Positions 1-51,909 of a stretch of 59,810 nucleotides of DNA are shown here, one piece after another. Below the pieces are notes generated by a model. It was given only the letters and a program-made list of their open reading frames with translations. It had not been told where the DNA came from and ran no database searches. A program made the position numbers and the translations under genes. The stretch is from Thelocarpon superellum (lineage: Eukaryota), in NCBI GenBank assembly GCA_026025795.1, contig JAPEUG010000067.1, positions 1-59,810 on the forward strand, given 5' to 3'. Position 1 is the stretch's first letter. The number at the start of each line of letters is the position of its first letter.

Positions 1-4
1 CGCA

Positions 5-2482: not shown

Positions 2483-5400
2483 TCACAGATACGGCATCCA
2501 AAGGGCATCGCTTTGGGCCAACGACACAGGGTTGACGGCCTTGGCGATCAGGTCGATGACGGTCTGGTTGGCCGGGAGGTTGCCAACGGGCGGCTTGGCA
2601 AGCGATGAGGCCTTCTTGACGATGATTTCCGAATTCGTCGACACCGTCTCGCGCAGCTGGTTCTCCTGCGTCGCCGACCGGTGCTGCTGCGTGAACCAGA
2701 AGATCATCTCGTCCCGCACAAAGATGCTGAGCGTCGCGTCGAGGTCAAAGGTCGGTTCCGTCAGACACCGCGCCAGCGCCATCATCGCGCACGAGAAGAT
2801 GCCCTCGAGCGCGAGCGGGCCCAGGAGCGTCTGCAGGTTGGGCGTCAGCCGGAACGGCACCGGCTCCGGGTTGTGGAAGAACGGCTTCCCCGCCGCGATG
2901 GCCGGGATGAGCTCCGAGCCCCAGCACTGGCCCGAGGCCCGCGAGATGGACAGCTTGTGGGGGTAGCGGTTGTTCATGTGCATGATGTACGTCATGAACG
3001 TCAGCGCCGCCAGCTGGTAGGAGAAGTGCCGGCGGAAGAGCCAGAAGCCGTCGAAGGAGGGGTGGATCGCGGTGAAGTAGGACAGGGCGAGCGTCGACGG
3101 GACCTGCGTCTGTTGGATGGCCGTGTACGCCTCCATGCGCAGCGAGCTGGCCTGTTCCGCCGCCTTGGGGCTCTTGAGGTCCGACAGCGCCCGCAGCTTC
3201 TCCATGGTGAAGAGCACGGGCTCGTCCTTGTTCATGCCGTGCCGCCGGCAATGGTCCTCGTACACGCCCTGCAGCGTCACGTACGACTCGTCGTCCTGCA
3301 CCAGCCGGATGTGCGGCGCCAGCGGCACCATCAGCGGCAGGTGGAAGGCGAGATTGCGCCGCCGGCTCTCCTTGCGCTTGACCAGCACGCCGTTGAAGAT
3401 GCGGAAGAGCTGCAGGATGCGCTCCTCGCGGCGGCAGTGCCGTGCCGCCGGATGCTGGATGGCAAAGGGGTGCACGCTGCCGTCGTGGCCGCGGATGCGC
3501 AGGCGCCGGTGGCACACCCCGATGCCGCGCACCAGCTCGATCTTGGGCAGGAAGCGCTCGATGCGGATGAAGTCGTGGTTCTTGTCGCGGTGCTGCAGGT
3601 ACTGGCCCGGCACCTCGACCTCGTCGAACTTCTGGAAGCGGAACTCGCTCAGGTGCGGGCTGTACTGCTCCAGGTTCTGCTGCGTCGGCCGCCGGTCCAG
3701 CTTCTCCTCGAACTTGTCGCGCCATCGCCGCAGCTTCTGGATGTACTCGTGCATCGTCGGCTTCCTCGTCACAAAGTCCGCCTCGAACGACTTGCGGATG
3801 TGCGCCGGCAAGATCGTCTCGGCGAAGCGCGTGATGTTGGCCTCCGTCGCGGGCGGGAGCTTCACGTCCTGCGCGTATGAGGTCGGCATTCGTCCGACAT
3901 ACTGTCGAGGGTCAGCCGTGGTCAGTTCGTCGCGCGTCCGCGCCTGGGCGGGGCGGCTCACCGATAAGCCATCGTTCAACAGCGCCACGATCAGCCGATA
4001 GGCGTCCTCGTCCGGCTGACACTTGAAGTGCTTCTGAATCTGGTCCACCATCGTCTCCATCGACAGCGCCAGCAACGGGAACGCCGTCTTCAGCACCGAC
4101 ATGATCTCTTCGGTGAATTCCCACGGGTACCGCTTGGTCGAAGCCGTCGCCATCGTCGAGGAGGCCGTGCCGGCGGGCGAGGAATGCGCGCCGCCGTTGG
4201 TCTCGAGCGTGGGCGAGGCGGCACCTATTCCTGCGTCAGTCGGCAGATCCACGGCGATCCATGGACGGGACGTACCTTTCTCCTCCTTCGTCGGCGCCGA
4301 CCCATTCGCCGTGCCCGGTCGCGGCGTCGGCGGCGAGGCCTGCTTGGTGGCCCCGGGTGATGCCTGCTTGGCGGCCTTTTGCATCTTCTCCTGCTTCTGC
4401 TCCTGCTGCTTCTTGATGGCGGCCATGTCTTCGCGCGTGGTGCGCAGCAGGAAGTAGAGGGCCTGCGGGTACGCCTTGGCGATCTTGAGGAGCACGGCGC
4501 GCGAGAGACGGGCCTCGCGGTGCGACAGCGACGTCAGCAGCTGTGGGATGAAGGTGATCCAGTACCACACCGGCGTCTCGCCCTTGAAGGCCTCAAAGGC
4601 CTCGGCGATAGACCCGGCGGCGTCGTCGAGGCTCAGCAGCCAGAGGATGCGGCCCAGCAGCTTGCGCGACTTGGCATTCTTGAACAGGCCGGCGGCCTCG
4701 AGGTAGCAGCTCACCGCGGCCGCGGCGTGCTGCGGCTCGGTCGGATGGGCGCGGTGGTTGGCGTCGTTGTAGCGGCCCCACTCGGCCCAGGCCTTGGGCA
4801 GCTTGATGTCGTAGAAGAGGGCGGTGCCAAAGGCCTCGTTGGCCTCGTCCGGCTGCTGCAGCTTGGCCAGGAACATGCCCTTGAGCGTGAAGAACTCGGC
4901 CTTTTGCTGCGCGCCAAAGTAGTTGAGGTTGGTGTTGTTGATGACGTCGAGCCCGTTGGTCAGCTCGTTGCGGTTCTGGTAGTGGCACTTGGCCTGCTCG
5001 CGCAGCTTGAGGAAGGCCTCCTGGATCTCGATGTTGGGCAGGGTGTAGATGCGGCTGAGCTGATTGATGCACACGTCGGGCAGCTGGTGCTTGCGCGCCA
5101 CGTGCGCGAAGCGATTGATGATCCACGCCGTCTCGTGGTAACCGCGGTACGCGAACGAGTTGCCCGTCGCCGTGCTCGGCGGCTGCGGCAGCAGCGTGAG
5201 ATAGGTGGTGTTGATCAGGTGGAAGATGTGCTGCCGCCACGTCACCAGGTCCTGCCACGCGTTGATGTCGTCCCACACGTTGGGCAGCCGGTCGCGCCAC
5301 GTCGCCAGCAGCAGCTTGAGCTCCTGCGACTTGCCGTCCAGGTTCTGCGGCGTCGTCGCCGCCAGGCTGGCGCAGATCAGGCTGGCGTCGTGCAGCTCCA

Positions 5401-8400
5401 CCAGCTGCTGGAAGTTCTGCAACAGCGGCACATGCGCCTGCGTCAGCGCCCGCGGCAGCTGGTGCCACTTGCGGATCGACAGCTGCACCGCCTCGTCCAC
5501 CACCCGGCTAAAGTCCGCCGTCGTCTCCGTCTTGGCGTGCAGCCGCAGCAGCGACAGGAAGGCCTGGAAGAAGGCCCGGCGGGGCGTCGGCGCATCCATG
5601 ACGCCCTTGACCAGCGACTCGAGCCAGTCGCGTTGGTCCGACCCCGTCCACATCTCCACCTGGCGCCACGCGCACTCGAGGAGCAGGTCGCTGAAGTTCT
5701 CGTGCTTGGCGAAGTCGAGCAGGATCTCCCACTGCTGCAACTTCTGCGCGCACCGCACCCAGTGATCCTCCCACAGCATGTACTCGCCTTGCGCGAACGG
5801 GATCGCCCCGCTCCGCGCCTTCATCTGCGCCGTCTCGTACAGGCCCTGAGCCTTGTCCCACACCCCCTGCTGCTCGTACGACAGCGCCGCGTTGGTCTCC
5901 ACAAACTGGCAGCGCCGCCGCCACGTACCGTAGAAGAGGTCGTCCTCCTGCAGGCCCGCGTACACCTCCACCAGCGCGTCCAGGGTGCTCTCCTGCACGC
6001 TCGGGCTCTGCGGCATCAACGGCGTGATCACCGCGTCCTCGAGCAGGTGCAGCGCCGTGTACCACGCGTCGTACGTTCGGCTCACGAATTTGACGACGTG
6101 CGGCGGCAGCTTGACCCGCGGCTGCGCCCGCGCCGCCCCCTCGAGCAGCGTCTGCACCACGTTGGGCCGCCGGTCGACCTGCCGCTGGTGGAAGTCCTTG
6201 GTCAACAGCGTCACCAGCCCGCGCTCGAGCTCGGCCCGGTCGTCCTTAGCCAGCGCGGACCAGGTGAGCGGGAAGAGATGGGTCCAGAGCGCGTGGGCCA
6301 GCGCGTCGTCCACGTGCTGCAACTGGCTCAGCGGCTCCAGCAGCTCGCGCACCCGCAGCTGGCTCAGCTCCGCCACAAACGCCGCGTGCGTGTGCACCCA
6401 TGCCTCGAGCGCGTCCTCGATCAGGAGACCGCTGGCACGTGCGTCCGCCTGGTAGGGCCGTAAGCCGCGCCCGAGCGGCACCGTGGTGATGTCGTCCGGG
6501 TGCAGGGCCGCAGGAGTGCCGAGGTCGATGGCGCCCAGCAGGAGCTGCGTGGCCTGGTGCAGCCAGTAGGAGTCCGCCAGCGTGTCCCAGTTCTGCGACG
6601 TCACGACGTAGTGCAGGCGCGCGCTCGCCGTCTGGCTCAGGCTGCGGTCGAAGATGAACATGAAGCGCTGCCGCATGGCCACGTCCTGGGCGCGCGTGCC
6701 CACGAGGAAGGCGTGCTCGAGCCGAACCGTCAGCTCGGTGCGGGTGATGTGCGGGTCCTCGTAGATGCGGATGACGAGATCGAGGAACTTGGTGAGCAGC
6801 TTCGGGTCCGGTCGGGTCTCGAAGGCGAGCATCTTATGCAGCACCGCCGTCTTCTCCTTGAGCGTGGGGTAGATGTCGGTGGAGTCAAATACCCAGCCTT
6901 CCACCAGGCTCAGGATGCGCAGACAGAGCTCCGTGCTCTGCGACTTCTCCACCAGCGACGCCAGCACGCTCAGGAAGGGCCGGCGCTGCTCGCCTAGCGT
7001 CGCCATGCGCATCGCGATGATCTCGATGGCCTTGAGGATGAGGTCCGTCTGGATCTCGAGTTCACGCGGGTCCAACGCCGTGGGGACGCCGGGCTCACCG
7101 GGCTTGGCCGCTGCACCCCCGGCCGCGCCAGTCGCTGTGGCGCTGGCCGCGGCCGCGGCCGCTGCTGCCGCGGGGGCCGGTCCAGGACCGCCGCCGGGAC
7201 CGTAGGCGGCAACGTGGTCCCGGGCCAACTTCTGCGACAGGGCCTTCATCAGGTTGGGGAGGTGCTCGTCCATCTGCCCGGGCCGACTCTGGGCCAAGGT
7301 CCAGAGGATGTTGATGCTGGCGACATGCTGGCCGGCGGACAGCGTCTCGGTCGCCACCGTGGACAGCAAGGTGATGAACTCCGACGTGGACGTCTCCGCG
7401 TCGGCGTCATCGTCGTCAGCGTGCTCCTCGGGGATGGCGTCGAGGATGCGCTTAATCAGGCCGCGGCCGGCACCGATGTCCTCGCCTGACGCCCGATGGA
7501 GCGCCTCCTGGATCTCAGGATTCTCGGATCGCAATGGTTTCTCCAGCAGCTTCGCGAGCTGGGAGATGTGCGCCAGCACCCAGTCGTCGGGCTTTCCGAG
7601 CACGAGGATGCGCACGACCTGGAGCGTATTGATGATGCTGGTCGTCATCTTCTCATCCGGCTTGTCCGTGCGCTCACTCGAGGCCAGGATGGGCTCGGTC
7701 AGCTTGGGGAAAAGGTCGAGGTCCAGTTCCGTCCAGTAGCCAGGCCCGAGGAGCTGCTCGAACAGCTGGAGCGCCTTTTGGACCATCTCGTGCGGCGGCG
7801 GCGACGGCGGTGTCGTCGCAGGACTCGCCGAGGAAGTGCCGGCGACCGGAGCGGGAAGGGCTTGCGCGGCCACGCCATCGGTCGAGCGGGGCGCGGGTAG
7901 GGTGAAGCGCTCGGGGATGGAGGTGATGAAGTGCACCAGGTACTTGATGAGCACCATCTTCAGCTGTGGCGGCAGCACGTATTCCCCCCGCTCGGCTGCC
8001 CCGCCACCGGTAGTGGCGACGCTGCGCGCCGATGGTGAGGCTGCCTCTGGCGCGCCCGTCACCGAGGACGCGCCATCGAGCTTGCGCTTCTTGGCTGAGG
8101 GCGACTCAGACGGATCTCGGGGGTTTGTGGCCGACGTCGGACCCGTGCCGGCACTCGGGCCCCCACCGGTCACTCGCCGCTCCTCCCACTGCCAGATGAG
8201 CCGCACCAGATTCAAGGCGAGCTTCTTGCTCTCGTTGGACGGGTTCGGGGACGGCGCAATCTTCTGCAGCGACTGCACGATGGTGGGGGCAAATTGCTCG
8301 CGCGCGTCGTAGAAGAGGGCGGGATGGCGAACCAGAAAATGAAAGATGCTGGTCAGCTGCGGGAGGTTGCCGTTCTCCTCGAGCAGAATGCGCTTCGGCC

Positions 8401-11400
8401 ACTTGGCCCAGACCATGACATTCCCGCCGCCGCCAGCCCCCGCCGCGCTGCCTCCGACGCGCTTGGGCAGCACGCCGGCGATGAGCTCGAGGGCCTGGGT
8501 CACGAGCGCCCGGCCTTCGTTCTGGTGGGCCTTGAGCAAGGCGACGTAAATCTGGATGATGATCTTGGCCGGACAATCGTAGTGCGCGATGAAGTAGGCG
8601 ATGACGACGTAGGCCGCGTGTTTGTTGATCACGTCCTCCAGCCGGATCGAGGTCCAACCGAACTTGATGACGTCTTTGCGCACCTCGGCGATGAGGGTCC
8701 GGTGATACTTGATCAGCAGCGCCGAGAGCTGCAGCAGCTCGAGGCGCGCGTGATCCACGCCCGGTTGGCCTGCCTCCTCGCTCAGATCGCTCAGATGCGC
8801 CTTCCAGACCTTGTTGTTGACGGCCTCGGTCATGCTGCGATCCATGACGCCCGCGCCTGCGCCCGCGCCGGGGCTGGCGTCGGCGCCACGCCGCGACTGT
8901 TGCTGGATGTCCATGGCAAAGATGGGGTTCACGAGATATCGAAAGGCAAAGGTCTTGGTGAGGGCCGACGTGCCGCGGGCCGAGGAGAGATCGAGACACC
9001 GCAGGATGATGCCACGTCGATAGTCGACCGCCTCACTGGTGATGATGAAGTCGTAGAGATAACGGTACAGCGCCGGCGTGTCTTGGAGCTCGTCTGCCGT
9101 GACGGCCTCGATCACTTCGAACAGCACGTCGACGTGCGCGGGCGGCGCCTGCGCCAAGTAGGCCGTCAGGATGTCCATCACCTGCTCGCCCGCCTGCTCG
9201 ACCGCGAGCCGTAGGGCCGGGGCCACGGCATTGCGCCGTCGCTGACCCTCGAGCCGGCGCCCGGCGGCGAGCACGTGCTGCCGCACCACCACCGCGCCCA
9301 CCAGCCAGGCCGCCGCCGCCGTCGTTGCGCCGTCCGCCGCCTTTTTGGGGGCCGCGTCGGACTCCGGGGCGTTCTCTTCAGTCTGCTCCTTCTCCGTCGT
9401 CGCCTCGGTCGTCGCTGCGAGCGTGGACTCCTCCTTCGCGGCCGGGAGGGCCGTGGGCGACGGGGCGGGAGGCGACGGCGACGGCGGGGGCGGGGTGCAC
9501 ACGAGCGCGTAGATCAGATGGAGGCCGTTGACGGCCGCCGCGTCCCGCTCGGCCTCATCGGTCCGCGCAAAGCCGGCCTTCACGAGGCCATCGACGTCGG
9601 CCATGACGACGTCGCGCAACGGCTCGCTGCCCGGTGCGGCCAGGAGCTGGGCGAGGAAGCGGCCGTAGCGCATCTCGGACAAGCGGGCGGCGAAGAAGGC
9701 CCACGTCTCTTGCGGATAGCGGGTGAGGTAGCGCAGCAGCGGGGCGCGGAACGGGCTGTCCTGAGTGCGCCGTAATTTGTCCTCGAGATCGAGCACCTTG
9801 TCGACGAGGCGCGGCATGAAGGTGATGGCGGCGGGAGGCAGCAGGTAGAAGACGTTGAGGATGGCGGTGACAATCTTCATCTGCGGGTGCTGCCCCACGA
9901 GGGTGAAGGAGATCTTCTGCAGCGTGGCGGCGTCGGCGAGCGTCTCCATGTGGTCGATGAGGCGCGTGCCGATCTCCACCTTGAAGTAGTTGGTCAGCAG
10001 CGTCAGCAGCCGGGCGAGACCGTCGAGGCCGGCCACGGTGAGGCGCTTGGGATCCTGCAGGTTCATGAGGATGGGCCGCAGGCCATTCTGGAGCAGGTCC
10101 TTGGGTAGCTTGTTGGTCACCGTGAGCACCTGCTTCAGGCCCTCGTTGGCGGCGTCGATGACCGCCGGCGATTTGGCGTAGAGCGACTTGAAGAAGACGG
10201 CGATGATGCGGGGCCGGCTCTGGTTCTGGGGCGCGTTGCCAAATTCGGCATTGCTCATGGCCATGCTCAGCAGGCGGATGCAGGCCACGCGCAGCTGCAC
10301 CAGCGCCTCGGCGGTGCGGTGCTCATGCGGCTTGCCGGCCAGGCTTTCGTCGTCGGCGTCGGCCAAGGCGAGCGCCTCCATCAGCAGGCGGTCGAGCGGG
10401 CCGCCAAAGGGGACAAGGTCGTGCTGCAGGCTGACGCAGAAGGCGATGGCGTCAATGCAGCCAATCTGCGTGGCGAATGGCAGCGCGCGCAGCGGCTTGT
10501 TGTAGATGGGCGAGAGCAAGCGGTCCTTGACCGGGCCTAGCAGCGTGTACACCGGCACGCCGCTCACCTCCGCCAGCAGGGCAAAGGCCCGTTGGGTCGC
10601 CGCACGGACGTTCGGGTTCATGTGCGCCAGCTCGTAGACGAGCACGCTGGCGAGCGTCGACAACCGACTCGACGGGCTGGCCAGCTCCGTCGTGGCGGCA
10701 TCGGCGCTGCGGGCCGGGGTGCCGCGCCGCAGCAGCAGCTCGAGCGTGTCCTGGGCCTGGCGGCGCGTCGTGGCCGGCAGATCGGGCGGCATGTCTTTGA
10801 TGACGTAGAGGAGGGCGCGCACAAATTCGAGCTGGCGATCGGCCAGCCAGGCGTCGCCGAGGTCAACGCGGGTGGCGACGAGGTGGATGCCACGGGCGCC
10901 ACCCGCCTTGGTGTACCACTCCTCCTCGTGGCAGCTGTGGGCGCAGGTCTTGGCCCAGTGCGCGAAGAAGGGGAGACGTGCGGCACGTTCCGGCGCGCCC
11001 AGGAGCACACCGGCCGCGGTGCGGACGGTCTCGAGGAGCGTCGCGGCCGCCTCGCGCACGTCCGATCGGTCCGAGGCGAGCGCGGCCACGAGGGCGTCGG
11101 CCAGCACGCGACCGTCGAGGGCGACGGGGCCCTCGCCGCGGTGCACGTCAAAGGGACGCTGGGCCTGTTGGCGTTGAGCCAGGGCGCGGGCAAGGTCGAG
11201 GAGGGCGACGTGCCGGACGACGTGCGCCATAAAGGTCGTAGCCTCCTCGGCCAGGGCCGGGACGGCCATGGCGAGACAGCCGGCCTGGAACAGCTGCTGT
11301 AGCGTCTCTTCCTGCGCGTCGCGCTTGGCAATGGCGCGGTCGCCGTCCTCCGTGTCGGCAGCGTCGTCCAGGGTGTCGGGGCCCGGGGGAGCGTCGGATT

Positions 11401-14400
11401 GGGCGCTGGCCAGCCAGTCGGTCGCCTGCAGGCGCACGCGCCGGGCCAGGTCATCGGGAGCGATGGCCGCGGTGGCGGGATCGCGGCCGAGGTGCAAGAT
11501 CAGCTGAGCCCGGAGCAGTCGCCAGGCCTGCTGCTTGTAAAAGGCGTCGGAGACGAGGGCGGCCGGGGTCTTGGGGATGTCCGTCAGCGTGGTCCGGGCG
11601 CGTTCGAGGCCCACGGTGGCGGGCCACGCGCGATCTTTGGCGGCGCCGACGAGGCGGACGTCGAAGCTGCAGCGGTCATCGGCATAGGTTTGGTAGGCCA
11701 GGCGTGGCGGCGCGGTGAGGAACTTGCGGTTGCGGCCGCCGAGCTTGCCGAGGATACGCATGGTGGTGTGGGCGTGAAAGTGTGGATAGGGGGCCGGGCG
11801 CAAGTGTTCCCACAGCGCCGTCATCAGGTCGGACATGACGGGGGCCATGATGGGGTCGAGGTAGTCGGCCGTCAGGTTGTCGACGCACAGCTCGAGCGTG
11901 CGCAGGCCCTGCCCAACCAGGTCGGAGCCGGCGCGCAGGGCGACGACGAGCGGGCGCATGAGGTAGCTCAGGTGCGGCAGCAGGTTGCTCAGCCGCGCGG
12001 GCACCGTCAGGCAGAGCTCGACGTAGAGGTCGCGTTCGGCGGGCTTGCGGGCGGCGCCCAGCAGGTGGTTGAGCGTCTCGAGCAGCATCTCGAGCAGGGG
12101 CAGCAGCTCCTTGTACAGCAGCTCGAAGCGGCCGCCGCCGATGCTGCGGAAGAGGGAGCGCAGCAACAGGAAATAATTGAGCGGCTCGGCGGCGGTGCGG
12201 GCCAGCGTGAGGCTCTGGGTGACGATGGTGGCGACGTGCGGCAGCAGGACCTGCTCGTTCTGCGCCGAGAAGAGGGTGACGGCCATGAAGGAGAGCTTAA
12301 AGAGGCGCAGCAGGATGGACGACGTCTTGACGTCCGCCGCGCCGACCTGCTCGATCCGGGCCATGAGGAAGGCGAGCAGCATGCCGGCGAAGGCGGGCGA
12401 CGTCGCCTCGCTGGCGAGGAAGAACTGCGGCACGTGCAGCAGGGCGGTGTGCTCAAACATCATGTCGTAGAGGCGCGGGATCTCGGCGTGAAAGACCTCG
12501 TGGAAGGTGGCGGGGTCGATGCAGTGGAAGACGGTGGCAAAGGTCTCGAGCAGCTCCTTCTCTTGCTTGCCGCTCGACACCATGTAGTGGTTGGCGAGGA
12601 ACTCGACGGGCGAGGCGTAGGTGGTCTCGGGCTTCGGCGGCTTCTCGAGGCGGTAGTAGCGGAAGACGTGGGCGCCCTCGCGGAAGAGCTTGGTGATGAC
12701 GTGCACCTCCTCGGCGTCGTAGCCGTACGACACCTCGTGCCAGTTGGGTGGCTGGTGGGCGGCTTCGACCGGCCGGGCCGGCGGGGGGTTGCACACCTTG
12801 AGCTGGTAGAACATGTTCTTGAGCCCGTTCATCAGGTTCTTGAAGAGGAACTTGTTGTCGGCGACGGGGTCGGCGCCGCGGTCGCGCGGCGCCGCCAGCT
12901 TGATGGGGGTGGCATGGAAGATGTCGATGGCGTCCCAGTCGGGAAGAGGTTCCTGGTCGGCCAAGTAGGGCTCGGGGGCGAGCTCGAGGGCGGAGGGTGC
13001 GGCGGCGGTGGCGGTGGTGACCTTGACGGCGTTGTCGTACTGCCGATTCATGGCGGCAAACTTGTCGGCGATGGCGTTCAGGATCATGATGAGGAAATGG
13101 CGGGCGTCGCGCTTGTCCTCGAGACGCGCGATACAGTCGGCCATGTTCAGGAGTAGCTTGGCGCTCATCGTCTGGAAGCTGGTGCCGGGGAAGTCGTCGT
13201 GCAGGTTCTTGGTGTAGACCTGGATGGTGCGACGGATCTGGTCCTTGTTGAGGGCATCGCGCACATGGTGGATGAGATCGGCCAGCATGCTGTAGGCCAG
13301 TGGGCGCATGGTCTCGTAGACGGTGAGGCCGTCGCCGATGAGAGTCTTCTCGTCGAGCAGGGCGTCGATCTGCTTGAGGAAGATCTTGCGGAAGTTGAAG
13401 TTGATGATGTGCCGGATGGCGACGAGCAGCTCCTTGCGGGCGCTCGAGCGCTCACGCGGGCAATCCTGCAGCAGGCGGACCACGATCTCGGGCAGGGTGG
13501 GGAGGAAGTCGGTCAGCTGCTGCGCGTAGACGCGCAAGAGGTAGGCGAGGAAGCTCATCGTCTTCACCTGGGCCATGATGAACTCGCCAAAGGCGGCGCG
13601 GTTTTTGATCTGGGGGCTGACGCCGGTGAAGACGCGGCCATGCTCCTTGGCCTCCTGGTGCGCACGCTCCTGTGGGCCCGCCTGCAGCATCAACACGGCC
13701 TTGATGAGGGGCACAAAGGCCTTGACGTTGCGGTGCACGCAGCTGCGGTGGGCCTGGAAGAGCGAAACGACGATGATGGGACACTCGGCTAAGACCTTGA
13801 AGGACTGCATGCCACGCAGCAGCTGGCGTGTCGTCTGTGGCTCCACCCCCCCCTCCGGCCCCGTGGCCATGGGTGAGCCGGGCCGGGGCGACTGGAAGTT
13901 CCCCGCCGGGCCGGGTGTCGATGGCACCACGTTGGCCGGGGCGGCGGCCGTGGTGGTGGCGGCGGCGGCGGCGGGGTTGTCAAAGGTATCATGGACGGCC
14001 TGGTCCATGGTCTGGAACATCTCCTGGATGAGGTCGAGGAAGGGCTGGACACGGTCGGCCAGGACCTTGGTCTGCTGCCGCTGGAGGTCCATGATGGTCT
14101 TCATGCACAGCACGGCATTGTCCTCGTTTTCCACCTGGACCAGGTCCATCAGGAGGTCGACGATCTCGGCGGCGTAGGGTTCCAAGGCCTCGGGCGGATT
14201 CATGGGCAGGCGGTGGAGGATCTCGAGGACGCAGTTGCGCAGGCGCTGCTCGGCCGAGGTGCTGAGGAAGACGGCGGGGCCATCTAAGAGTTTGAGGAAG
14301 ACGGGGACCATCTTCTTTAGAAAGGGGACATAGAGCTGGCCCGACGTCATATACTCGATGGAGTCGCGGAGCTCCGTTGCAATCTGAACCCGTAGCTTGA

Positions 14401-14549
14401 GCTCTGCGGGGAAGGCGATGAGTTAGCCATGATCCCGCTTCGTGGCGAGCGAGGATTGAGGATCGAGGAGTAACGTCCTTGGCGGGCTACTCACCAATGT
14501 GTGGGTCCGCCAAGCGGGCGGCGTAGACGTCGACATTGCGGTCCGCCAT
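2483..14549 (-). CDS. TRA1: Tra1/TRRAP, PIKK-family pseudokinase scaffold of SAGA/NuA4
   Basis: ORF of about 3950 aa with HEAT, FAT and PI3K-like regions and a FATC end ([12 protein letters not shown]). The kinase catalytic motifs are replaced (NNRYPHK, GSELIP). True start is ATG 14549 ([13 protein letters not shown]), followed by intron 14404-14494. Likely in-frame introns at 3902-3961 and 4225/4231-4275. Confidence 0.96.
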
Positions 14550-34720: not shown

Positions 34721-37175
34721 TCATCGCATGCTTCGGCCCGATCCTACCGACCCAGTCCGCGAATGCTCCTTGCCCGTCGCCGACGACGCCGTGCCCCTTC
34801 GTTCTCGCCCTCCTCCTCCTCCTCCTCCTCCACCCCCCCCACCTCCCCCGCTTCCTTGTACGCCGCCTCCTGCACCCGGCCCGGCACTATTGACTTCGTC
34901 CTGCAGCTTCAGCGCATCTAATCGCTTCTGACTGTCTTGCGTCAGGGGATCGATCCCGTCGTCGAGCCGGGACGGCGCAGCCGCGGTCATGGGCGGCACT
35001 TTGTTGGTCAAGGACGTGCCGGGCCTCGATGACGCCATCGTCCCCTGACGTCGTCGCGCCTGCTCCTCGATTACCTCCCACTTGTTCTTCCGGTTCAGCT
35101 GGCGCTCCTCTGCCGTGTTCTGCATCTCCGTGTAGTCGTGCGAGCACTCGTCGAAGAGCTGCGGGTTGATCTCCATGAAGAGCTTCATCGCGTTGAACAC
35201 CATGCCGTGGATCGTGCTGCCCTCATCAGTCCACAGTCGCCGCACCACGCCGGACCCCTCCTCACTCACCGGTTCCAGTGACCCTTGGAATTCTCGTACA
35301 ATGGGGCAAACATGATGGGCAAGATGGTGACGACGTTGTCGCTGACCAGGTTGCAAAAGTACTCGTTGTTCCAGAAGTACAGCGCCCGTTCCGCCACCTG
35401 GAAATGAGGACTGGCGACGGATTTGGCCAGCTGGTTGAAAAGCGGCTCCTGCACCTTGGCGAACTCTTGCGGGTCCATGACTTCGAAGATGTCCTCCACC
35501 TCGTTCAGGTACATGACCTCCTTGGTGCTGTTGACCTTTGGCCAGTATCGCAACAGTCCCAAAACCACCTATCACGCATGAGCGACGGTCCTCGTCTCCC
35601 GCCGATGCACGCTTACCTCTTCGGTCAAGGCCGCATCCTTCTCCAAGAACTGCACGATGCAGTATGCCAGCTGCGGGTGGTACATGCTGAGGCTCTTGAC
35701 CTTATGCATCGGCAGCAGCACGCGCGTCAGGAAGAGCTTGTGCTCCTCCTTCAGCGGCAGGGCAAAGCCGTTGATGATGGACCCGAGAATCTCCAACAGC
35801 TCGGCGATGCCGTTGAAGCGTTCCGTCTCGTAGACGAATTGGAAGAAGACGTTGTTGATGGACCGACGGATGTAGGAGCGGAGATTGAGGAATTTGCCGT
35901 AGATGCGATGCAGCGTCGTCTTGAGAAAGTCCCGTTCCCGCGGATCTTCCGAGTCGAAGAGCTCGAGCAACTACGTGGCGTTAGCCGTACTCGGGTCCAC
36001 GCGGCGCCGCCGCCATGCCTACCTGCAACACGAACTGATGGTCGATGAATTGCTTGGCGATGTTGGTGTTGAAGTCTTGGCTTTCGATGAAGCGCAGGAA
36101 GAACTCGTACACCACCTGGATGTGGGGCCACGCCACCTCCAGCACCGGCTCGTCCTCCTCGGGATCAAAGGCTTCGCCCTGCGGATTTATCGGCGGCGGG
36201 ATGGGCCGGAAGAGGTTCTTGCTAAACATGTCGACGACGCGCGGATACATGGGTTCCGTGATCACCTGCCGGTTGTTCGCCACGTAGTCCAACAGCTCGT
36301 GCAGCGCCAGGCGTTTGATCTCCTTGGACTTCATGTCTCCGCTGGCGTCGTTGAAGTCGAAGATGACGTTGCACTGGTCGATCTTCTGCATGAAGAGCTC
36401 CTGCCGCCGGTTGGGCGGCACCTCGTGGAAGCCCGGCAGCTTCTCGAGCTCGCGCAGCGGCGAGATGTCGAAGCGGGAGGAGTGCTGTCGTTTCGGCGTG
36501 CGGATACCCTCGGGCACGTCCTTGGGCGTCGTCTGCAGCCGGTCGAACAGCAGCGACTTTTGCCCGGCCTTGGGCGGCGCCAGATCGTGCGGCATCGTCT
36601 CGGCCGCGCCCGGCGGAGGGATGTGCGGCGCGCTCGGGCTGATGACGACGCTGGGCGCGATCTGCGTGCCCTGGCGCGTCGGCGTGCCCGGCGAGGCCAA
36701 GCCGCCGAGGTTGTGCATGCCGCCGTATGCATGTTGTTGCGGCGACAGCATCGGCGGGTTGGCGGCCATGGGATTGAGCGCGCTGGGATGCGGGCCATGG
36801 CTCGCCGGCGCGTGGCTGGCCCCGCCCGGTCCGTTCTCACCTTGAGGGAGTGGCTTGTTCCTCACGTCATTGACGGTCGAGGTCGACGAGGTCGGCGTGC
36901 CATGATTCGAGCTGGCGGGCGACTGGGCGCGGCCCGACGGACCGCCGGAGGAGGACTGCGAGGGCGAGGAGGTGCCGGAGTTGGACTCCTTCTTCTTCGA
37001 GGACTTGTTGGAGTCTTTGGCGCGCGAGAGCTGCTCGTGCTATGCATGTCAGCGCGCGGTCGGTGAGCGAGAGGCCCAGGCCGCGGCCCAGGCACGGCGG
37101 TGAGGGGGCACGGGGAGAGGGCGTGGCTGGAGACAGGGAGCGGGGTCTTACAACGCGCTGTCGAAAGCCCCTCAT
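34721..37175 (-). CDS. RTS1: Protein phosphatase 2A regulatory subunit B'/B56
   Basis: Start MRGFRQRV at 37175. Motifs [81 protein letters not shown]. Four introns at approximately 37040-37151, 35971-36021, 35569-35616 and 35217-35269. Confidence 0.95.
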
Positions 37176-40723: not shown

Positions 40724-42132
40724 TCACATTATCAAGACGTCCGCCTTTCTCTTCTCGCTTCCGCTGCCTTCCACGGTCGGCGTGTCTGCGTCGCCATCCG
40801 CGCTGCCACTCTCCCAGATCTCAATGTCCGCTGAGTCGTCGGCCTTGCCGCCGAATTTCTTCAGGGTTGAAGAGACAGCCAAAGGCCATTCAGGGCACGG
40901 GTGGCTCTCAGCCTCGGCCTTCGGGCTGTTCTGCGCCGCGGACGTGAACGGATTGGTGCGGGGCGCCGGGAGCTGAGGCGCCTGAAAGCCCTTGCACTTC
41001 TCCGCGCTGGGGGCCGTGACGAGCAGGAACGAAGACGAGTCATCGTGGAAGTCGGACGGAGGCAGGTCGGCCAAAGGGGCGCGGTACGGCGCGAAAGGGT
41101 TTGTGGCACGCTTGGTCTGCCGGACGCGGCGGGTCTTGGTCGGGACGTCGCCAGCGCTGGACGCTGGGGGAGACATGGACACGGTCTCGGTGGAGGTGGG
41201 GACGGCCTCGGTCGACACCTGGGCGGGAGGGATGTTCTCCTTGCCACGGTCGTGCATCTCCCGACGGCGCCCCTCGTCATCGGAGATGTCCAGGGCACTC
41301 GTCGAGAACTCCATGATGTTGGTGAGCGTGTCCTCGAGCGTGTCCTCGTGGATGTCGAAGAACCAGTTGCGTGGCATGGAGGACTCGTCTACGGCGGGGA
41401 GGGGGTCGGCGTTGCCGAGCATCGCAGCCACGCGGGACCCAGCGCTCGTTCCACTGACGGTGGCACTGAGCGCGGCATCGAGGGACAAGGGGCTGGCATC
41501 GCGGAGACTGGCAGGGGGGTCGATGCGAGTGAAGGGTGACGCGGTCCGACGTCCCGTGAGGATCCCGATGCTCTTACTCTTCGGGGAACGGCCGGCCGCC
41601 GGAGTCACCTTGCGAGCCGGCTCACGCTTCGGGATGGGGCAGCTGCTAGGCGTCTGGGCCTTGTGCAGCCGGGACACGGGGACACGGGTGGCACGCTTGA
41701 CCGTGGACGAGGGCTTGATCGGATTGCGCAGGTCATCCGGCGAGGGCGGAGCATCGGTCAAGATGAACTTGGCACTCTTGGTTGGCGTGGTGAGATTGAC
41801 CTTGGAGGCCGAAGCACCATACAGGCCAATGGTATTCTTGGCACGCTTGGACGAGCCAAACATGGAGGGATCAACGTTCTCCGAGTCCTCGTCCGCAAAG
41901 GCCGCGTGTGAGTGACGACGCTTGGTCGACGAGGCGCCTTCCGCTTTCAATCCTGTGGAAAGAGGTCAGATCACGTCACGTCCAGGTGGCATAGAGCGAT
42001 CACGACGATCCCCAAGCCGGCGAGCCTCCTACCATTCTGACGGTTCTTCATGTTTTGGATATTCTGCAGACGACCACCATCGAGACTACCGAAGGGCTGT
42101 CGAGCGACCGACAGAGGAGCCATCGTTGCCAT
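40724..42132 (-). CDS. Hypothetical disordered protein (442 aa) with ABBA, KEN and D-box motifs; candidate Acm1-like APC/C regulator
   Basis: Exon 1 (42033-42132, MATMAPLSVARQPF...KNRQNG), intron 41953-42032 and exon 2 (40724-41952) join in frame. Contains FDIHED, KENIPP, RAPLADL and many SP/TP sites. Confidence refers to the gene model; the function is inference. Confidence 0.82.
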
Positions 42133-49198: not shown

Positions 49199-51575
49199 TC
49201 ATACACCACTCCGATAGACCTGGGCGCCCTGATTCCGAATCTGCACGGTATCGCGGCGCTGCAGGATGACCAAGGCACGATTGAGGGCCATTTCACTGAA
49301 GCCCTTGGCGGTGACGAACTCGCGCTTGAGGGTAGCGAGGCTCGTGCTCCATCCGATGGGTAGACGTCGACGGAGCTCCTCCTCCACCTTGCCCGTCTCC
49401 TCCATCAACTCCTTGTTGCTGCCGCCCGCGCCGCCCTCGCCCTGCGTGACGGCGTCCATGGTGCTGGCGAGGAAGAGGCGGATGGCCTCGTCGACGTGCG
49501 CTTCCGTCGCGACGGGCGACAGCGACAGCTTGGCCAGCGACTCCGTGATGCGGATGATGGCTTCGAGCTGGCGCACCGTGATGGGGATCGACGAGCGCGC
49601 GTTCGCGGAGATCTCGGCGCTGTGGACCTGTCGCCGGATGGAGACGAAGTGGGACGAGAGCTTCTCCGCCGCTTCAGCCGAGAGACGGGGTGCGCATTTC
49701 CTGGAGGCGGAGGAGGGGGGTTAGTCGAGGAAGAGGGAAAGCACGGAAAGCAGAGAGAGGGCAGAGAGGGAGAGGTGGGGGCGGGGGGAAGCCACATACT
49801 GCTTGCAGTAGCTGATGTAGCGTTTCATCTTCTCAATGGAAATCTCGGCCTCGACCTGCTCTTCCAGGCCGCGGCCGCCCATCTGGATGCCCATGACGTG
49901 GCGGGCGATGCGCTCGTCGCGGCCGCGCTCATGCTCGTCGCGCACGATGAAGATCATGTCGAAGCGCGAGAGGATGGTGGTCTGGAAGTCGATGTTCTCG
50001 CCGGGGGTCTTGAGGTCGTCGTACCGCCCGAAGATGGGATTGGCCGCGGCCAGGACGGAGGTGCGCGCGTTCAGGATGGTGGTGATGCCGGCCTTGGCGA
50101 TGGAGATGGTCTGCTGCTCCATGGCCTCGTGGATGGCCACGCGGTCCTCGTCGCGCATCTTGTCGAACTCGTCGATGCACACCACGCCGCCGTCGGCCAG
50201 CACCATCGCACCGCCCTCGAGGTAGAATTCGCGCGTCGACGCGTCGCGCTGCACCGACGCCGTCAGACCCGCCGCGGACGAGCCCTTGCCGGAGGTGTAG
50301 ATGGCGATGGGCGCCACTTTCTCCACGAACTTCAGCAGCTGTGATTTGGCCGTGCCCGGGTCGCCGAGCAGGAGCACGTTGATGTCGCCGCGCAGCTTCA
50401 TGCCGTCCGGCAGGATCTTCTTGGAGCCGCCGAGGAGCAGGCAGGCGATGGCTTTCTTGATGTCATCGTTGCCGTAGATGGACGGCGCGATGCAGCTGGC
50501 AAACACCTTGTACAGATCCGGGCGTCGGCTCATCTCGAGGAATTCCTGCTCCTCCTCCTCGCTGAAGATGGCCTGGCCCTTGGCCGTGTGATCGACGTCG
50601 CTGCCGATGCCGACGGCGCGGAGGTACGGGTTGCGAATGGCCACGGCCGAGGTGGACGACGACTTGGACCCCTTGGATTGGTAGATGGAGAAGACGCCCA
50701 TCACCGTACATCGGGACCCCGGCACCACGCGACCCGTCAGGTAGCGTTCGGCTGAGACGAGGATGTGGCGCGGCAGCTCGCCCACGGGCACCTGATCCGG
50801 CGCCTCCTGCAGCTTCAAGACCTGCTGGTCGACGAACTGACTCTTCTCGTGCACGACGAAGTAGGGGTCCAGCGGACACGGGTCCGTCCTTTCGTCCTCC
50901 CTTTTCTTCCGCCCGCAGACGCGCGGGATGGTGATGCCGGTAAAGCCTCCGGCGATGTGCAGCTCCTCGGTGTGCTGGCAGTTGCGGCATTGGAGGTTCA
51001 GCACGGTGGCCTTGGAGGACAAAGTCGACGCACCGATGACGATGCCTGGGATGCGCACCAGGCTGGAGATGTTGGTGGCGTTGAGATCGCGGATGGAGAT
51101 GTGCGAGACGCTGGAGTGGAGCAGCAGCTGGTGCTCGGGCAGGACCACCTTGGCCTCCGAGGGGTAGACGATCTTTCTCGTACACAGCTGCAGCGCCGCC
51201 TCGAACTAGTCCTGGTCAGCGTCACGCCATCTGCCGTCGATGGCCAGCACCCCGCCTACCAGGGGAATGATCTCGGCAGGTTCGGTGGTCAGTCGATGGG
51301 CCAAGTCCTCGTTGAATGAGATCAGGTGCGCGATGTCGACGTCGCAGGAGTAGTGCTTGATGAGCACGTTCTCGCGGATTTGGTCGCTACGCATCCATTA
51401 GCTTCCGCCAGACGCTCGTGGCCACTGTGCCGTCTCACCGGTAGATGAAGGCATTGTCGAGGCGAAAGTCGAGGATGAAGTCCGCCAGCTGTTGCTTGAT
51501 CCGGCCACGCGTCTCCTCGTTGGGGTCGTAGTCCGGGGCAAGCACGCTCAGCGAATACACCGATTGACGATCCAT
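49199..51575 (-). CDS. MCM5: DNA replication licensing helicase subunit Mcm5
   Basis: Start [10 protein letters not shown]. Motifs [17 protein letters not shown], Walker [10 protein letters not shown], Walker B IDEFDKM, arginine finger [22 protein letters not shown]. Three introns at approximately 51387-51438, 51207-51259 and 49701-49798. Confidence 0.96.
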
Positions 51576-51674
51576 GATGCACGATCTGGGCGCGGGACGC
51601 GACGAGAATGCAGTCTGGCGATGGTGTTGCTCTTCGTTCTGGACGGGGGACCGGCGACACGGTCGCGACCGGGC

Positions 51675-51703
51675 GACGCGACGCGTCTTGAGGGGCGCGT
51701 AAA
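51675..51703. promoter_or_regulatory. MCB-like cluster upstream of MCM5
   Basis: GACGCGACGCGTC (ACGCGT at 51681-51686) and TTTACGCGCC on the minus strand, 100-130 bp upstream of the ATG of a replication gene. Confidence 0.5.
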
Positions 51704-51819
51704 GTGGTTCTAGCTGTACCGCTGGCTGCGGGTATTTTGGAGACCTGCCCTGGGGGTGTCGTGCCGAGGCCACCATGCTCGCCCTGCTACTCGTACTCGT
51801 GCGCACCGTAACATACTCA

Positions 51820-51909
51820 TGTAGGAATCAGAGCTGAATTGCTAATCTACGCGTAGTCGGGAGAGTGATAGGAGTGGGCACGTGACCAGATCACGTGTGC
51901 GCTCCTACA
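51820..51909 (-). mobile_element. 90-bp TG...CA element, copy 1 (very short solo LTR or MITE-like)
   Basis: Termini TGTAGGA...TCCTACA, flanks CTCA/CTCG. Its reverse complement matches 56708-56797 at 85 of 90 positions. Confidence 0.8.

What the first reader, a model, noticed from the sequence alone, without database searches (positions are those of the whole stretch)
40724..42132. Candidate Acm1-like APC/C-Cdh1 pseudosubstrate inhibitor hidden in a 'hypothetical' protein
Seen in sequence: a domain-less, SP/TP-rich 442-aa protein contains, in order, WFFDIHEDT (FDIHED at 41342-41359, fitting the ABBA consensus Fx[ILV][FHY]x[DE]), a KEN box 39 residues later (KENIPP, KEN at 41234-41242) and a D-box RAPLADLPPSDF (41048-41083). 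It also has CDK-consensus sites such as TPTK. Established knowledge: S. cerevisiae Acm1 inhibits Cdh1 through an ABBA-KEN-D-box triad. From memory its motifs are FMLYEE, KEN and RIALKDLSVDEF, with similar ABBA-KEN spacing and the same RxxLxDLxxxxF pattern. Acm1 is usually described as confined to budding yeasts. Inference: this is a diverged orthologue or analogue that would give filamentous ascomycetes an unrecognised APC/C inhibitor. The KEN to D-box spacer is longer here (about 50 aa).
Basis: partly seen in the sequence, partly recalled or inferred. Interest (0 to 1): 0.85.

Follow-up and report, generated by a model that had tools for sequence, protein, structure and literature searches.

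The report
Fungal disordered protein with APC/C-docking cassette
A disordered protein found across filamentous ascomycetes carries, in fixed order and spacing, the three short motifs that dock onto the activator subunit of the cell-cycle ubiquitin ligase APC/C, so it is probably a regulator or priority target of that ligase, but whether it inhibits it as yeast Acm1 does has not been tested.

Summary
The minus-strand, two-exon gene 40724-42132 encodes a 442-aa protein with no Pfam domain. The window is a Thelocarpon superellum contig, and NCBI calls the protein hypothetical.

The protein belongs to a large Pezizomycotina family: 516 representatives at E<=1e-3. Of 376 fetched members of 330 aa or more, 368 keep ABBA, then KEN, then D-box in that order. 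ABBA-to-KEN spacing is 35-45 residues; in Acm1 it is about 37. AlphaFold2 places a helix directly after the ABBA motif, as in Acm1.

Docking on Cdh1 or Cdc20 is therefore well supported. Orthology to Acm1 is not: a family profile found no Acm1 chain in the PDB. Conservation is also not confined to the triad, because five other islands are equally conserved. Sequence cannot separate an inhibitor from an ordinary substrate.

One serious rival stays open. A Pezizomycotina securin family is in print, and I could not compare it with this family. No Cdh1, Cdc20 or separase sequence could be obtained, so no complex was predicted.

Verdict: partly supported, and a promising testable candidate.

The parts
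40724..42132 (-). Whole gene: CDS of 442 aa including the stop codon, two exons
   Evidence: The 100%-identical NCBI record P0003 is.
42033..42132 (-). Exon 1 (33 codons plus 1 base), encoding MATMAPLSVARQPFGSLDGGRLQNIQNMKNRQN
   Evidence: The junction ..NRQN-G-L.. matches homologues.
41953..42032 (-). Intron, 80 nt, gt..ag
   Evidence: Read. Reading frames before and after are joined as in the 439-aa NCBI protein.
42076..42102 (-). N-terminal D-box-like motif RQPFGSLDG (family consensus RQPFAPLD), followed by a predicted helix
   Evidence: Found in 235 of 376 members; many gene models lack exon 1. Helix at residues 16-29. Phe instead of Leu at P4, so degron status is inferred, not shown.
41867..41884 (-). 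SENVDP, a degenerate KEN-type motif (xENxxP). E, N, D and P are invariant in 25 of 25.
   Evidence: Found in 339 of 376 members. Mean conservation 0.86. He 2013 shows that the NEN sequence of Acm1 binds the KEN site.
41573..41590 (-). RSPKSK: an invariant proline-directed Ser in a basic stretch (candidate CDK site and nuclear localisation signal)
   Evidence: S153 and P154 are invariant. GRSP is present in 342 of 376. Mean conservation 0.86. The function is inferred.
41459..41485 (-). SLDAALSAT (family consensus PFSIDAALSGT), an invariant island with no known partner
   Evidence: S, D, A, A, L, G and T are invariant or nearly so. Mean conservation 0.91. Short helix at residues 188-192.
41339..41365 (-). 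WFFDIHEDT, containing the ABBA (A-motif) match FDIHED at 41342-41359
   Evidence: Mean conservation 0.88.
41303..41338 (-). Predicted alpha-helix directly after the ABBA motif (LEDTLTNIMEFS)
   Evidence: AF2 helix at residues 236-247, in the best-scored part of the model: the 10-residue blocks over residues 221-250 average pLDDT 74, 83 and 70. In Acm1 the A motif (61-70) is followed by a helix up to residue 80.
41225..41242 (-). KENIPP, a canonical KEN box (KENxPP)
   Evidence: G, K, E, N, P and P are invariant. Mean conservation 0.98. Position table.
41048..41083 (-). RAPLADLPPSDF: D-box P1-P7 plus the conserved extension [DE][FY]Y
   Evidence: P3 is P or A in 361 of 368; P6 is E or D in 337 of 368; P9 is never Asn.
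40808..40828 (-). DIEIWES, a C-terminal conserved island (Trp nearly invariant). It is the candidate securin-type pseudosubstrate under the rival reading.
   Evidence: W410. Found in 334 of 376. The Glu of DIE is present in only 14 of 25 rows and is Lys in C. thermophilum.

Best explanation
This is a Pezizomycotina-wide, intrinsically disordered cell-cycle protein that docks onto the WD40 propeller of an APC/C coactivator (Cdh1/CdhA and/or Cdc20). Docking uses a central cassette: ABBA motif, short helix, acidic/Ser stretch, KEN box, then an extended D-box. The geometry resembles the Cdh1-inhibitory region of Acm1, and all three degron sites on one coactivator would be occupied at once. The most likely consequence is competitive, pseudosubstrate-type inhibition or buffering of APC/C-coactivator. 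The N-terminal D-box-like and xENxxP motifs would provide the protein's own later destruction. The invariant basic RSP site would provide CDK and localisation control.

Shown: the motifs, their order, their spacing, their family-wide conservation, and the predicted helix.

Inferred: binding to the coactivator, which coactivator is bound, inhibition rather than degradation, and the roles of the N-terminal and central islands.
For: - Triad conservation. 25 of 25 diverse homologues and 368 of 376 fetched members of 330 aa or more keep the triad in order. Of the 8 misses, the two I inspected, CHGG_10777 and P0125, lack or scramble the ABBA region in their gene models.
- Spacing. ABBA to KEN is 35-45 residues (median 42). 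KEN to D-box is 24-75. In Acm1, F61 lies about 37 residues before the KEN box, and a 13-residue linker already spans KEN to D-box on one Cdh1.
- Residue-level conservation. For ABBA: F (fixed by the search pattern; invariant in the unselected 25-row alignment), I in 364 of 368, H or Y in 367 of 368, E in 350, D in 358. These are the positions He 2013 shows contacting Cdh1 (F61, Y64, E65, E66). KEN-x-P-P is invariant. The D-box is R-x-[PA]-L-[GAS]-[ED]-[ML], matching the P3, P6 and P7 preferences explained.
- D-box P9 is never Asn (0 of 368) and is Ala or Val in 284. Acm1 has the rare Val at P9, whereas Asn is the preferred residue at P9 of D boxes.
- AF2 puts a helix directly after the ABBA motif, in the best-scored part of an otherwise disordered model.
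- Lys density in the cassette is half that elsewhere: 0.030 against 0.062. This is weak support.
- An N-terminal D-box-like motif parallels Acm1's DB1, which is highly conserved in Acm1 orthologues.
- No Emi1, Acm1 or Rca1 homologue is known in A. nidulans, so the niche is unfilled.
Against: - No detectable homology to Acm1. The protein is twice as long.
- Five further islands are as conserved as the triad, so the protein has at least one other partner and possibly another main function.
- ABBA, KEN and D-box also occur together in true substrates such as cyclin A and Clb5.
- In A. nidulans, deletion of pucA is lethal. The authors take this as evidence that no other sufficient mechanism inactivates CdhA. 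No Eurotiomycete appears among the named hits listed, but only the best 120 of each search are listed.
- No binding test of any kind could be run.
- The census is weighted towards Sordariomycetes, because of how searches were aimed.
Confidence: 0.45

Rival explanations
1. It is an ordinary, high-priority APC/C substrate. The ABBA-KEN-D-box cassette gives early or efficient degradation, as in cyclin A or Clb5. The real function lies in the other conserved islands (GRSPKSK..SPFTRIDPP..PFSIDAALSGT, and the C-terminal WES motif), which bind an unknown partner.
For: Conservation is not confined to the triad: islands at residues 151-195 score 0.86-0.91, against 0.88, 0.98 and 0.74 for the triad. ABBA motifs serve substrates as well as inhibitors. 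Acm1 itself becomes a substrate when its motifs are altered. The A. nidulans genetics argues against a strong redundant Cdh1 inhibitor.
Against: The cassette reproduces Acm1's order and ABBA-KEN spacing, and its D-box has a non-Asn P9. Lys density is reduced in the cassette. A separate N-terminal degron-like pair exists that could serve for degradation.
Confidence: 0.3
2. It is the Pezizomycotina securin, an inhibitor and chaperone of separase. KEN and the D-box would be its degrons, and DIEIWES (or the FDIHEDT patch) would be the pseudosubstrate for the separase active site. In that case it would already be known from C. thermophilum and C. globosum.
For: - A Pezizomycotina securin family anchored on C. 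globosum XP_001225358.1 is in print. It is described as having KEN and D boxes plus an almost invariant Glu in a conserved patch (Cromer 2019 figure legend and text). I could not check whether this is the same family.
- The first named neighbour in the ESM Atlas is an Ascomycota cluster in which 55% of members carry PF04856 Securin. The score is 0.76, which is a lead only.
- The order KEN, D-box, x-I-E-I-W resembles the general securin layout. The human pseudosubstrate is EIEKFFP.
Against: - 0 of 25 members hit PF04856 even at E<=10.
- The Glu of DIE is present in only 14 of 25 rows and is Lys in C. thermophilum CTHT_0050460.
- Only about 27 residues follow the motif, whereas the separase-interacting segment of securins begins with the pseudosubstrate and runs on along separase.
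- The canonical degrons lie in the middle of the protein, not at the N-terminus.
- None of the named hits is called securin.
- A conserved ABBA motif with fixed spacing to KEN is, to my recollection, not a securin feature.
Confidence: 0.12
3. The conserved islands serve other partners. WfFDIHED may be a PP2A-B56 LxxIxE-type docking site. Alternatively, the protein may be the uncharacterised Pezizomycotina family that weakly matches the Sororin C-terminal model.
For: In 213 (Phe) plus 43 (Met) plus 18 (Cys) of 368 members, the residue before the ABBA Phe, together with I at +2 and E at +4, fits [LFMCI]xxIxE (consensus recalled), and acidic residues follow. One search reports an unnamed Pezizomycotina family (Pyrenophora XP_001941430.1) as the weak best hit of a Sororin C-terminal HMM.
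Against: The LxxIxE key position is the least conserved residue of the island, whereas the ABBA positions are invariant. The Sororin domain needs a basic stretch, a linker and a Phe-rich C-terminal motif, which are not seen here. In Pleosporales members the C-terminal island is degenerate.
Confidence: 0.05

Closest known systems
Acm1 (S. cerevisiae APC/C-Cdh1 modulator 1)
   Same: The same order of modules: N-terminal D-box-type motif, CDK-type sites, A/ABBA motif followed by a helix, KEN box, D-box. ABBA-KEN spacing is about 37 residues in Acm1 and 35-45 here. The D-box has good P1-P7 positions and a non-Asn P9.
   Different: No detectable sequence homology. About 440 aa here; I recall about 209 aa for Acm1, and mentions a fragment 59-209. 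The KEN-to-D-box linker is 24-75 residues rather than 15. Five extra invariant islands are present. The 14-3-3 site and K motif of Acm1 were not identified. Binding to Cdh1 and inhibition are untested.
Mes1 (S. pombe) and other KEN plus D-box pseudosubstrate inhibitors
   Same: KEN and D-box arranged so as to occupy both degron receptors of a coactivator (Conclusions passage of He 2013).
   Different: No ABBA motif is mentioned for Mes1 in the passages I read. No Mes1 sequence was available for comparison.
Securins (Pds1, Cut2, PTTG1, the C. thermophilum / C. globosum securin)
   Same: A disordered protein with KEN and D-box and an x-I-E-x-hydrophobic patch. Families of this kind diverge so fast that they are recognisable only within a clade.
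   Different: The degrons are central rather than N-terminal. The candidate pseudosubstrate sits about 27 residues from the C-terminus and its Glu is not conserved. No PF04856 hit. Identity with the published Pezizomycotina securin could not be checked.
ABBA-bearing substrates and checkpoint proteins (cyclin A, Clb5, Bub1, BubR1/Mad3)
   Same: Use of an ABBA motif together with KEN and D-box to bind Cdc20 or Cdh1.
   Different: Those proteins carry folded domains (cyclin box, TPR, kinase). This protein has none.

Membership tests
Acm1 family | Detectable sequence homology to S. cerevisiae Acm1 | tested here: not met
   A profile of 25 family members searched against all PDB chains at E<=10 gave only one chance hit (NADH dehydrogenase subunit, E 1.4) and no Acm1 chain.
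Acm1 family | A/ABBA motif followed by an alpha-helix | tested here: met
   FDIHED and the family consensus. AF2 helix at residues 236-247 directly after it. Acm1 has its A motif at 61-70 and a helix up to residue 80.
Acm1 family | KEN box about 35-40 residues downstream of the A motif, then a D-box on the same chain | tested here: met
   39 residues in the window; 35-45 in 368 members; the D-box follows 24-75 residues after KEN. K98 is inferred from P103 being the Pro of KENxxP.
Acm1 family | N-terminal D-box (DB1) used by Cdc20 to destroy the inhibitor | tested here: inconclusive
   RQPF[AG]x[LV] is conserved at residues 8-16 but has Phe at P4. It is present in 235 of 376 members, and many gene models lack exon 1.
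Acm1 family | Binds the Cdh1 WD40 domain and inhibits APC/C-Cdh1 without being efficiently ubiquitinated | not testable with these tools
   No Cdh1 or Cdc20 sequence could be obtained.
Acm1 family | Phospho-dependent 14-3-3 site (pT161) and K motif | not tested
   A consensus RRRxxSSP in the family could fit RxxpSxP (pattern recalled), but the window protein has RRTASPF. No test was run.
Securin | Pfam PF04856, or identity with the published Pezizomycotina securin (C. globosum XP_001225358.1) | tested here: inconclusive
   PF04856 was hit by 0 of 25 members. The family's C. globosum member is CHGG_10777.
Securin | A pseudosubstrate patch with a near-invariant Glu that begins a long C-terminal separase-interacting segment | tested here: not met
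   DIEIWES lies 27 residues from the C-terminus. The Glu is present in 14 of 25 rows and is Lys in C. thermophilum.
Securin | KEN and D-box degrons in the N-terminal region | tested here: inconclusive
   The canonical KEN and D-box are at residues 268 and 321 of 439. Only degenerate forms (RQPF.., SENVDP) are N-terminal.
Sororin | At the C-terminus: a basic stretch, a polar linker, then a conserved Phe-rich motif | tested here: not met
   Definition. The C-terminal island here (xIEIWESGSA) has no preceding basic stretch and is degenerate in Pleosporales.

The most novel reading that the evidence does not exclude
Filamentous ascomycetes possess an unrecognised, clade-wide pseudosubstrate inhibitor of APC/C-Cdh1 (and perhaps APC/C-Cdc20). 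It would be built like Acm1 (ABBA, helix, KEN, D-box) but would not be detectably homologous to it. It would couple an inhibitory cassette to separate N-terminal degrons and to a second invariant module (GRSPKSK..SPFTRIDPP..PFSIDAALSGT) for CDK or localisation control or for another partner. It would fill the gap noted for A. nidulans, where no Emi1, Acm1 or Rca1 homologue is known.
Probability: 0.4. Interest if true: 0.75.

Novelty: new variant of a known kind. Interest (0 to 1): 0.6.

Why it matters
APC/C-Cdh1 must be switched off for S phase. Animals use Emi1, flies use Rca1 and budding yeast uses Acm1. For filamentous fungi, the Oakley laboratory states that none of these has an obvious homologue in A. 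nidulans.

This candidate is single-gene, conserved across the subphylum, and has a precisely spaced ABBA-KEN-D-box cassette. That makes the question directly testable in N. crassa (GE21DRAFT_6885), in C. thermophilum (CTHT_0050460, convenient for biochemistry), or in other laboratory models.

It would also be a second, independent example of the Acm1 architecture. That bears on whether such cassettes are ancient or arise repeatedly from short motifs.

If it instead proves to be the securin or a plain substrate, the family still gets its first functional annotation, and the spurious UniRef label 'Thymidylate kinase' is corrected.

Tried and rejected
- Pfam on the protein and on 25 homologues: nothing meaningful.
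- PDB profile search at E<=10: one chance hit; no Acm1, securin or Mad3 chain.
- ESM Atlas, whole protein: the family's own unnamed clusters, then a Securin-bearing cluster at 0.76, which is a lead only. Atlas on residues 215-340, named clusters only: no usable hit.
- AF2: mean pLDDT 50 and pTM 0.21. This is too low for a fold search, so none was run.
- Identity with the published Pezizomycotina securin, attempted several ways:
  - Lin 2016, Luo and Tong 2017 and Boland 2017 are not held.
  - The supplement text of Cromer 2019 has no match for the species or KEN.
  - A literature search for CTHT_0050460, CHGG_10777 and XP_001225358 found only Cromer 2019.
  - I tried to map XP_001225358 to a CHGG tag by accession numbering. 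The one pair found in print (XP_001222293 = CHGG_06198) contradicts the constant offset I recalled, so this route is inconclusive and I dropped it.
- Two 'securin' hits in fungal papers were the word 'securing'.
- Di Fiore 2015, Burton 2011 and Enquist-Newman 2008 are not held.
- Motif strings (FDIHED, GKENIPP and others) in the paper library: only false matches on 'dihedral'.
- MluI cell-cycle boxes: 15 in the window against 21 expected. Two lie upstream of the gene (42917, 43868), which is not significant.
- B56 docking test: the window's B56 gene is split over several exons, and no single exon covers the binding groove, so no complex job was sent.
- Complex prediction was not used at all, for lack of a Cdh1, Cdc20 or separase sequence.
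- The careful tree did not finish. The quick tree served only to choose sequences.
Full report
**1. What is there**

The finding lies in a minus-strand gene. Exon 1 (42132-42033) and exon 2 (41952-40724) are separated by an 80-nt gt..ag intron, and together they encode 442 aa. A 100%-identical record exists: 'MAG: hypothetical protein M1838_005388 [Thelocarpon superellum]', 439 aa, on a contig of 59810 bases, which is the window itself. That record starts at the second ATG. Homologues begin MAT.AP.., which favours the first ATG. T. superellum belongs to Pezizomycotina, order Thelocarpales.

Pfam finds nothing at E<=10. The gene's neighbours are ordinary housekeeping genes: TFIIIC tau95 downstream, a PfkB kinase upstream, and also Tra1, FGAM synthase, GCP5, Prp9, a DEAD helicase, an MCM protein, Vps54, a B56 subunit and an APC/C TPR subunit.

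**2. More than chance?**

Shuffling the protein 20000 times gave the three motifs in the right order once. A reader scanning a whole genome could still meet that by luck, so conservation decides the matter.

The protein has 324 relatives at E<=1e-3 in the 90%-clustered database. An exhaustive search from a Colletotrichum member found 516 representatives at E<=1e-3, of which 368 are at E<=1e-10. All named hits are Pezizomycotina: Lecanoromycetes and allied lichen lineages, Geoglossomycetes, Leotiomycetes, Dothideomycetes and Sordariomycetes, including N. crassa, C. globosum CHGG_10777 and C. thermophilum CTHT_0050460.

In an alignment of 25 diverse members, each has exactly one strict ABBA match and one KEN, 39-44 residues apart. 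23 have RxxL at the aligned D-box, and the other two have Met at P4.

For a wider census I took all 424 fetched family proteins and dropped 48 that are shorter than 330 aa. Of the remaining 376, 368 carry ABBA, then KEN, then D-box in that order. ABBA-KEN spacing is 35-45 residues (median 42) and KEN-D-box spacing is 24-75 (median 33). Of the eight misses, the two I inspected have broken gene models: CHGG_10777 lacks the ABBA region, and P0125 is scrambled there. This sample is rich in Sordariomycetes because of how searches were aimed.

**3. Anatomy**

Conservation comes in islands separated by variable linkers (mean fraction of the commonest residue, against 0.48 for the whole protein):

| Island | Conservation |
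|---|---|
| RQPFAxLD plus a predicted helix (N-terminus) | 0.65 |
| SENVDP | 0.86 |
| GRSPKSK | 0.86 |
| SPFTRIDPP | 0.87 |
| PFSIDAALSGT | 0.91 |
| WFFDIHEDT | 0.88 |
| LDISDDE | 0.92 |
| GKENIPP | 0.98 |
| RxPLGDL | 0.74 |
| DF[YH] extension | 0.66 |
| xIEIWES | 0.69 |
| Linkers, for comparison | 0.27-0.40 |

AlphaFold2 with the 25-sequence alignment gives a disordered chain (mean pLDDT 50). It has four short helices, at residues 16-29, 188-192, 236-247 and 257-263. The best-scored segment is the ABBA motif and the helix that follows it: the 10-residue blocks over residues 221-250 average pLDDT 74, 83 and 70.

**4. Why the triad looks like a coactivator-docking cassette**

He et al. 2013 (passages read) describe the Acm1-Cdh1 structure as follows.
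- It is followed by a helix up to residue 80.
- The KEN box comes next, with the Pro of KENxxP at residue 103.
- DB3 starts at R119. Its A121 (P3), D124 (P6) and L125 (P7) explain the D-box preferences for A/P/S, D/E and V/I/L at those positions.
- P9 is Val, which is rare; Asn is preferred there.

The family conserves those same positions.
- ABBA: F; I in 364 of 368; H or Y in 367; E in 350; D in 358. The F is fixed by the search pattern in that census, but it is invariant in the unselected 25-row alignment.
- KEN: KEN-x-P-P is invariant.
- D-box: R-x-[P 278 / A 83]-L-[G/A/S]-[E 216 / D 121]-[M/L]. P9 is never Asn, and is Ala or Val in 284 of 368.

The ABBA-KEN distance (35-45) brackets Acm1's value of about 37. 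That value is my inference: K98 from P103. The KEN-D-box linker is always longer than the 13 residues that suffice to bridge the two sites on one Cdh1.

However, the 'DEF' tail after Acm1's D-box comes from recall only.

**5. What the evidence does not show**

- A profile of the family finds no Acm1 chain in the PDB at E<=10. Orthology to Acm1 is therefore unsupported, and analogy or extreme divergence cannot be told apart.
- Conservation is not confined to the triad. The block from 151 to 195 is as conserved as the ABBA motif and has no explanation. A basic RSP site suggests a CDK-regulated nuclear localisation signal, but that is inference.
- ABBA, KEN and D-box together also mark true substrates.
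- Halved Lys density in the cassette (0.030 against 0.062) and the non-Asn P9 lean towards a pseudosubstrate, but only weakly.
- The A. nidulans work argues that no other sufficient mechanism inactivates CdhA, because deletion of pucA is lethal. I saw no Eurotiomycete among the listed named hits, but only the best 120 of each search are listed.

**6. The securin question**

Cromer et al. 2019 state that a C. thermophilum securin was experimentally probed. They describe a Pezizomycotina-wide securin family anchored on C. globosum XP_001225358.1, with KEN and D boxes and an almost invariant Glu patch (figure legend and text passages). The Atlas's first named neighbour of this protein is an Ascomycota cluster in which 55% of members carry Pfam Securin. 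The score is 0.76, a lead only. The order KEN, D-box, x-I-E-I-W resembles that layout.

Against this reading:
- No member hits PF04856 (0 of 25).
- The Glu of DIE is present in only 14 of 25 rows and is Lys in the C. thermophilum member.
- Only about 27 residues follow the motif. In securins the separase-interacting segment starts at the pseudosubstrate and runs on along the enzyme.
- The canonical degrons are central, not N-terminal.

I could not make the decisive comparison. The primary paper is not held. The one XP/CHGG pair found in print shows that accession numbers cannot be converted to locus tags by an offset. I therefore keep securin as an open rival at about 0.12.

**7. Verdict**

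The mechanism-level reading, that a cassette engages all three degron receptors of an APC/C coactivator, is well supported by sequence evidence alone. I put coactivator docking at roughly 0.8.

The specific claim of an Acm1-like inhibitor is the best single explanation (0.45) but is untested. An ordinary substrate with another function (0.30) and securin (0.12) remain.

No paper in the searched library mentions the family's locus tags or motifs. Sources label the family 'hypothetical' or, spuriously, 'Thymidylate kinase'.

Noticed in passing
window 2-2035 (+): An APC/C TPR subunit gene (ANAPC3 domain plus TPR repeats) runs off the left end of the contig, about 39 kb from the finding. There is no sign of a functional link, and it is probably coincidence.
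   Followed up: no
window 34721-37039 (-): A PP2A B56 regulatory-subunit gene split over at least three exons. Profile positions 1-143 and 360-413 lie in separate ORFs. The ABBA island of the finding also fits an LxxIxE-type B56 docking pattern in most family members.
   Followed up: partly
window 51507-51854: Three ACGCGT (MluI cell-cycle box) sites cluster just upstream of the minus-strand MCM gene (49721-51205), as expected for a G1/S gene. The window as a whole has fewer such sites than chance predicts (15 against 21).
   Followed up: no
family-wide: UniRef and some NCBI records label this domain-less family 'Thymidylate kinase'. No kinase domain is present (Pfam finds none), so the label looks like a propagated annotation error.
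   Followed up: partly
window 42121-42132 (-): The NCBI model starts at the second ATG (439 aa). Homologues starting MAT.AP support the first ATG (442 aa).
   Followed up: yes
P0395 (C. globosum CHGG_10777), P0125: The public gene models of some members lack or scramble the N-terminus and the ABBA region, probably through mis-called introns. This could hide the family's motifs from anyone using those records.
   Followed up: partly
window 41339-41341 (-) (Thr after FDIHED) and family: The Thr following the ABBA motif is nearly invariant (T in 352 and S in 15 of 368). Pro follows it in 258 of 368, though not in this window, where it is Leu. This may be a proline-directed phospho-switch next to the docking motif.
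   Followed up: no
window 41459-41590 (-): The block GRSPKSKRxGILSRRRxxSSPFTRIDPP...PFSIDAALSGT is as conserved as the degron triad (0.86-0.91) and matches no motif class I could name. It is an unexplained second module.
   Followed up: partly
window 2483-14422 (-): A single uninterrupted ORF of 3979 codons encodes a Tra1-type protein (Tra1 ring, FAT, PI3K-like and FATC domains). This is a very long intron-free stretch for this genome.
   Followed up: no
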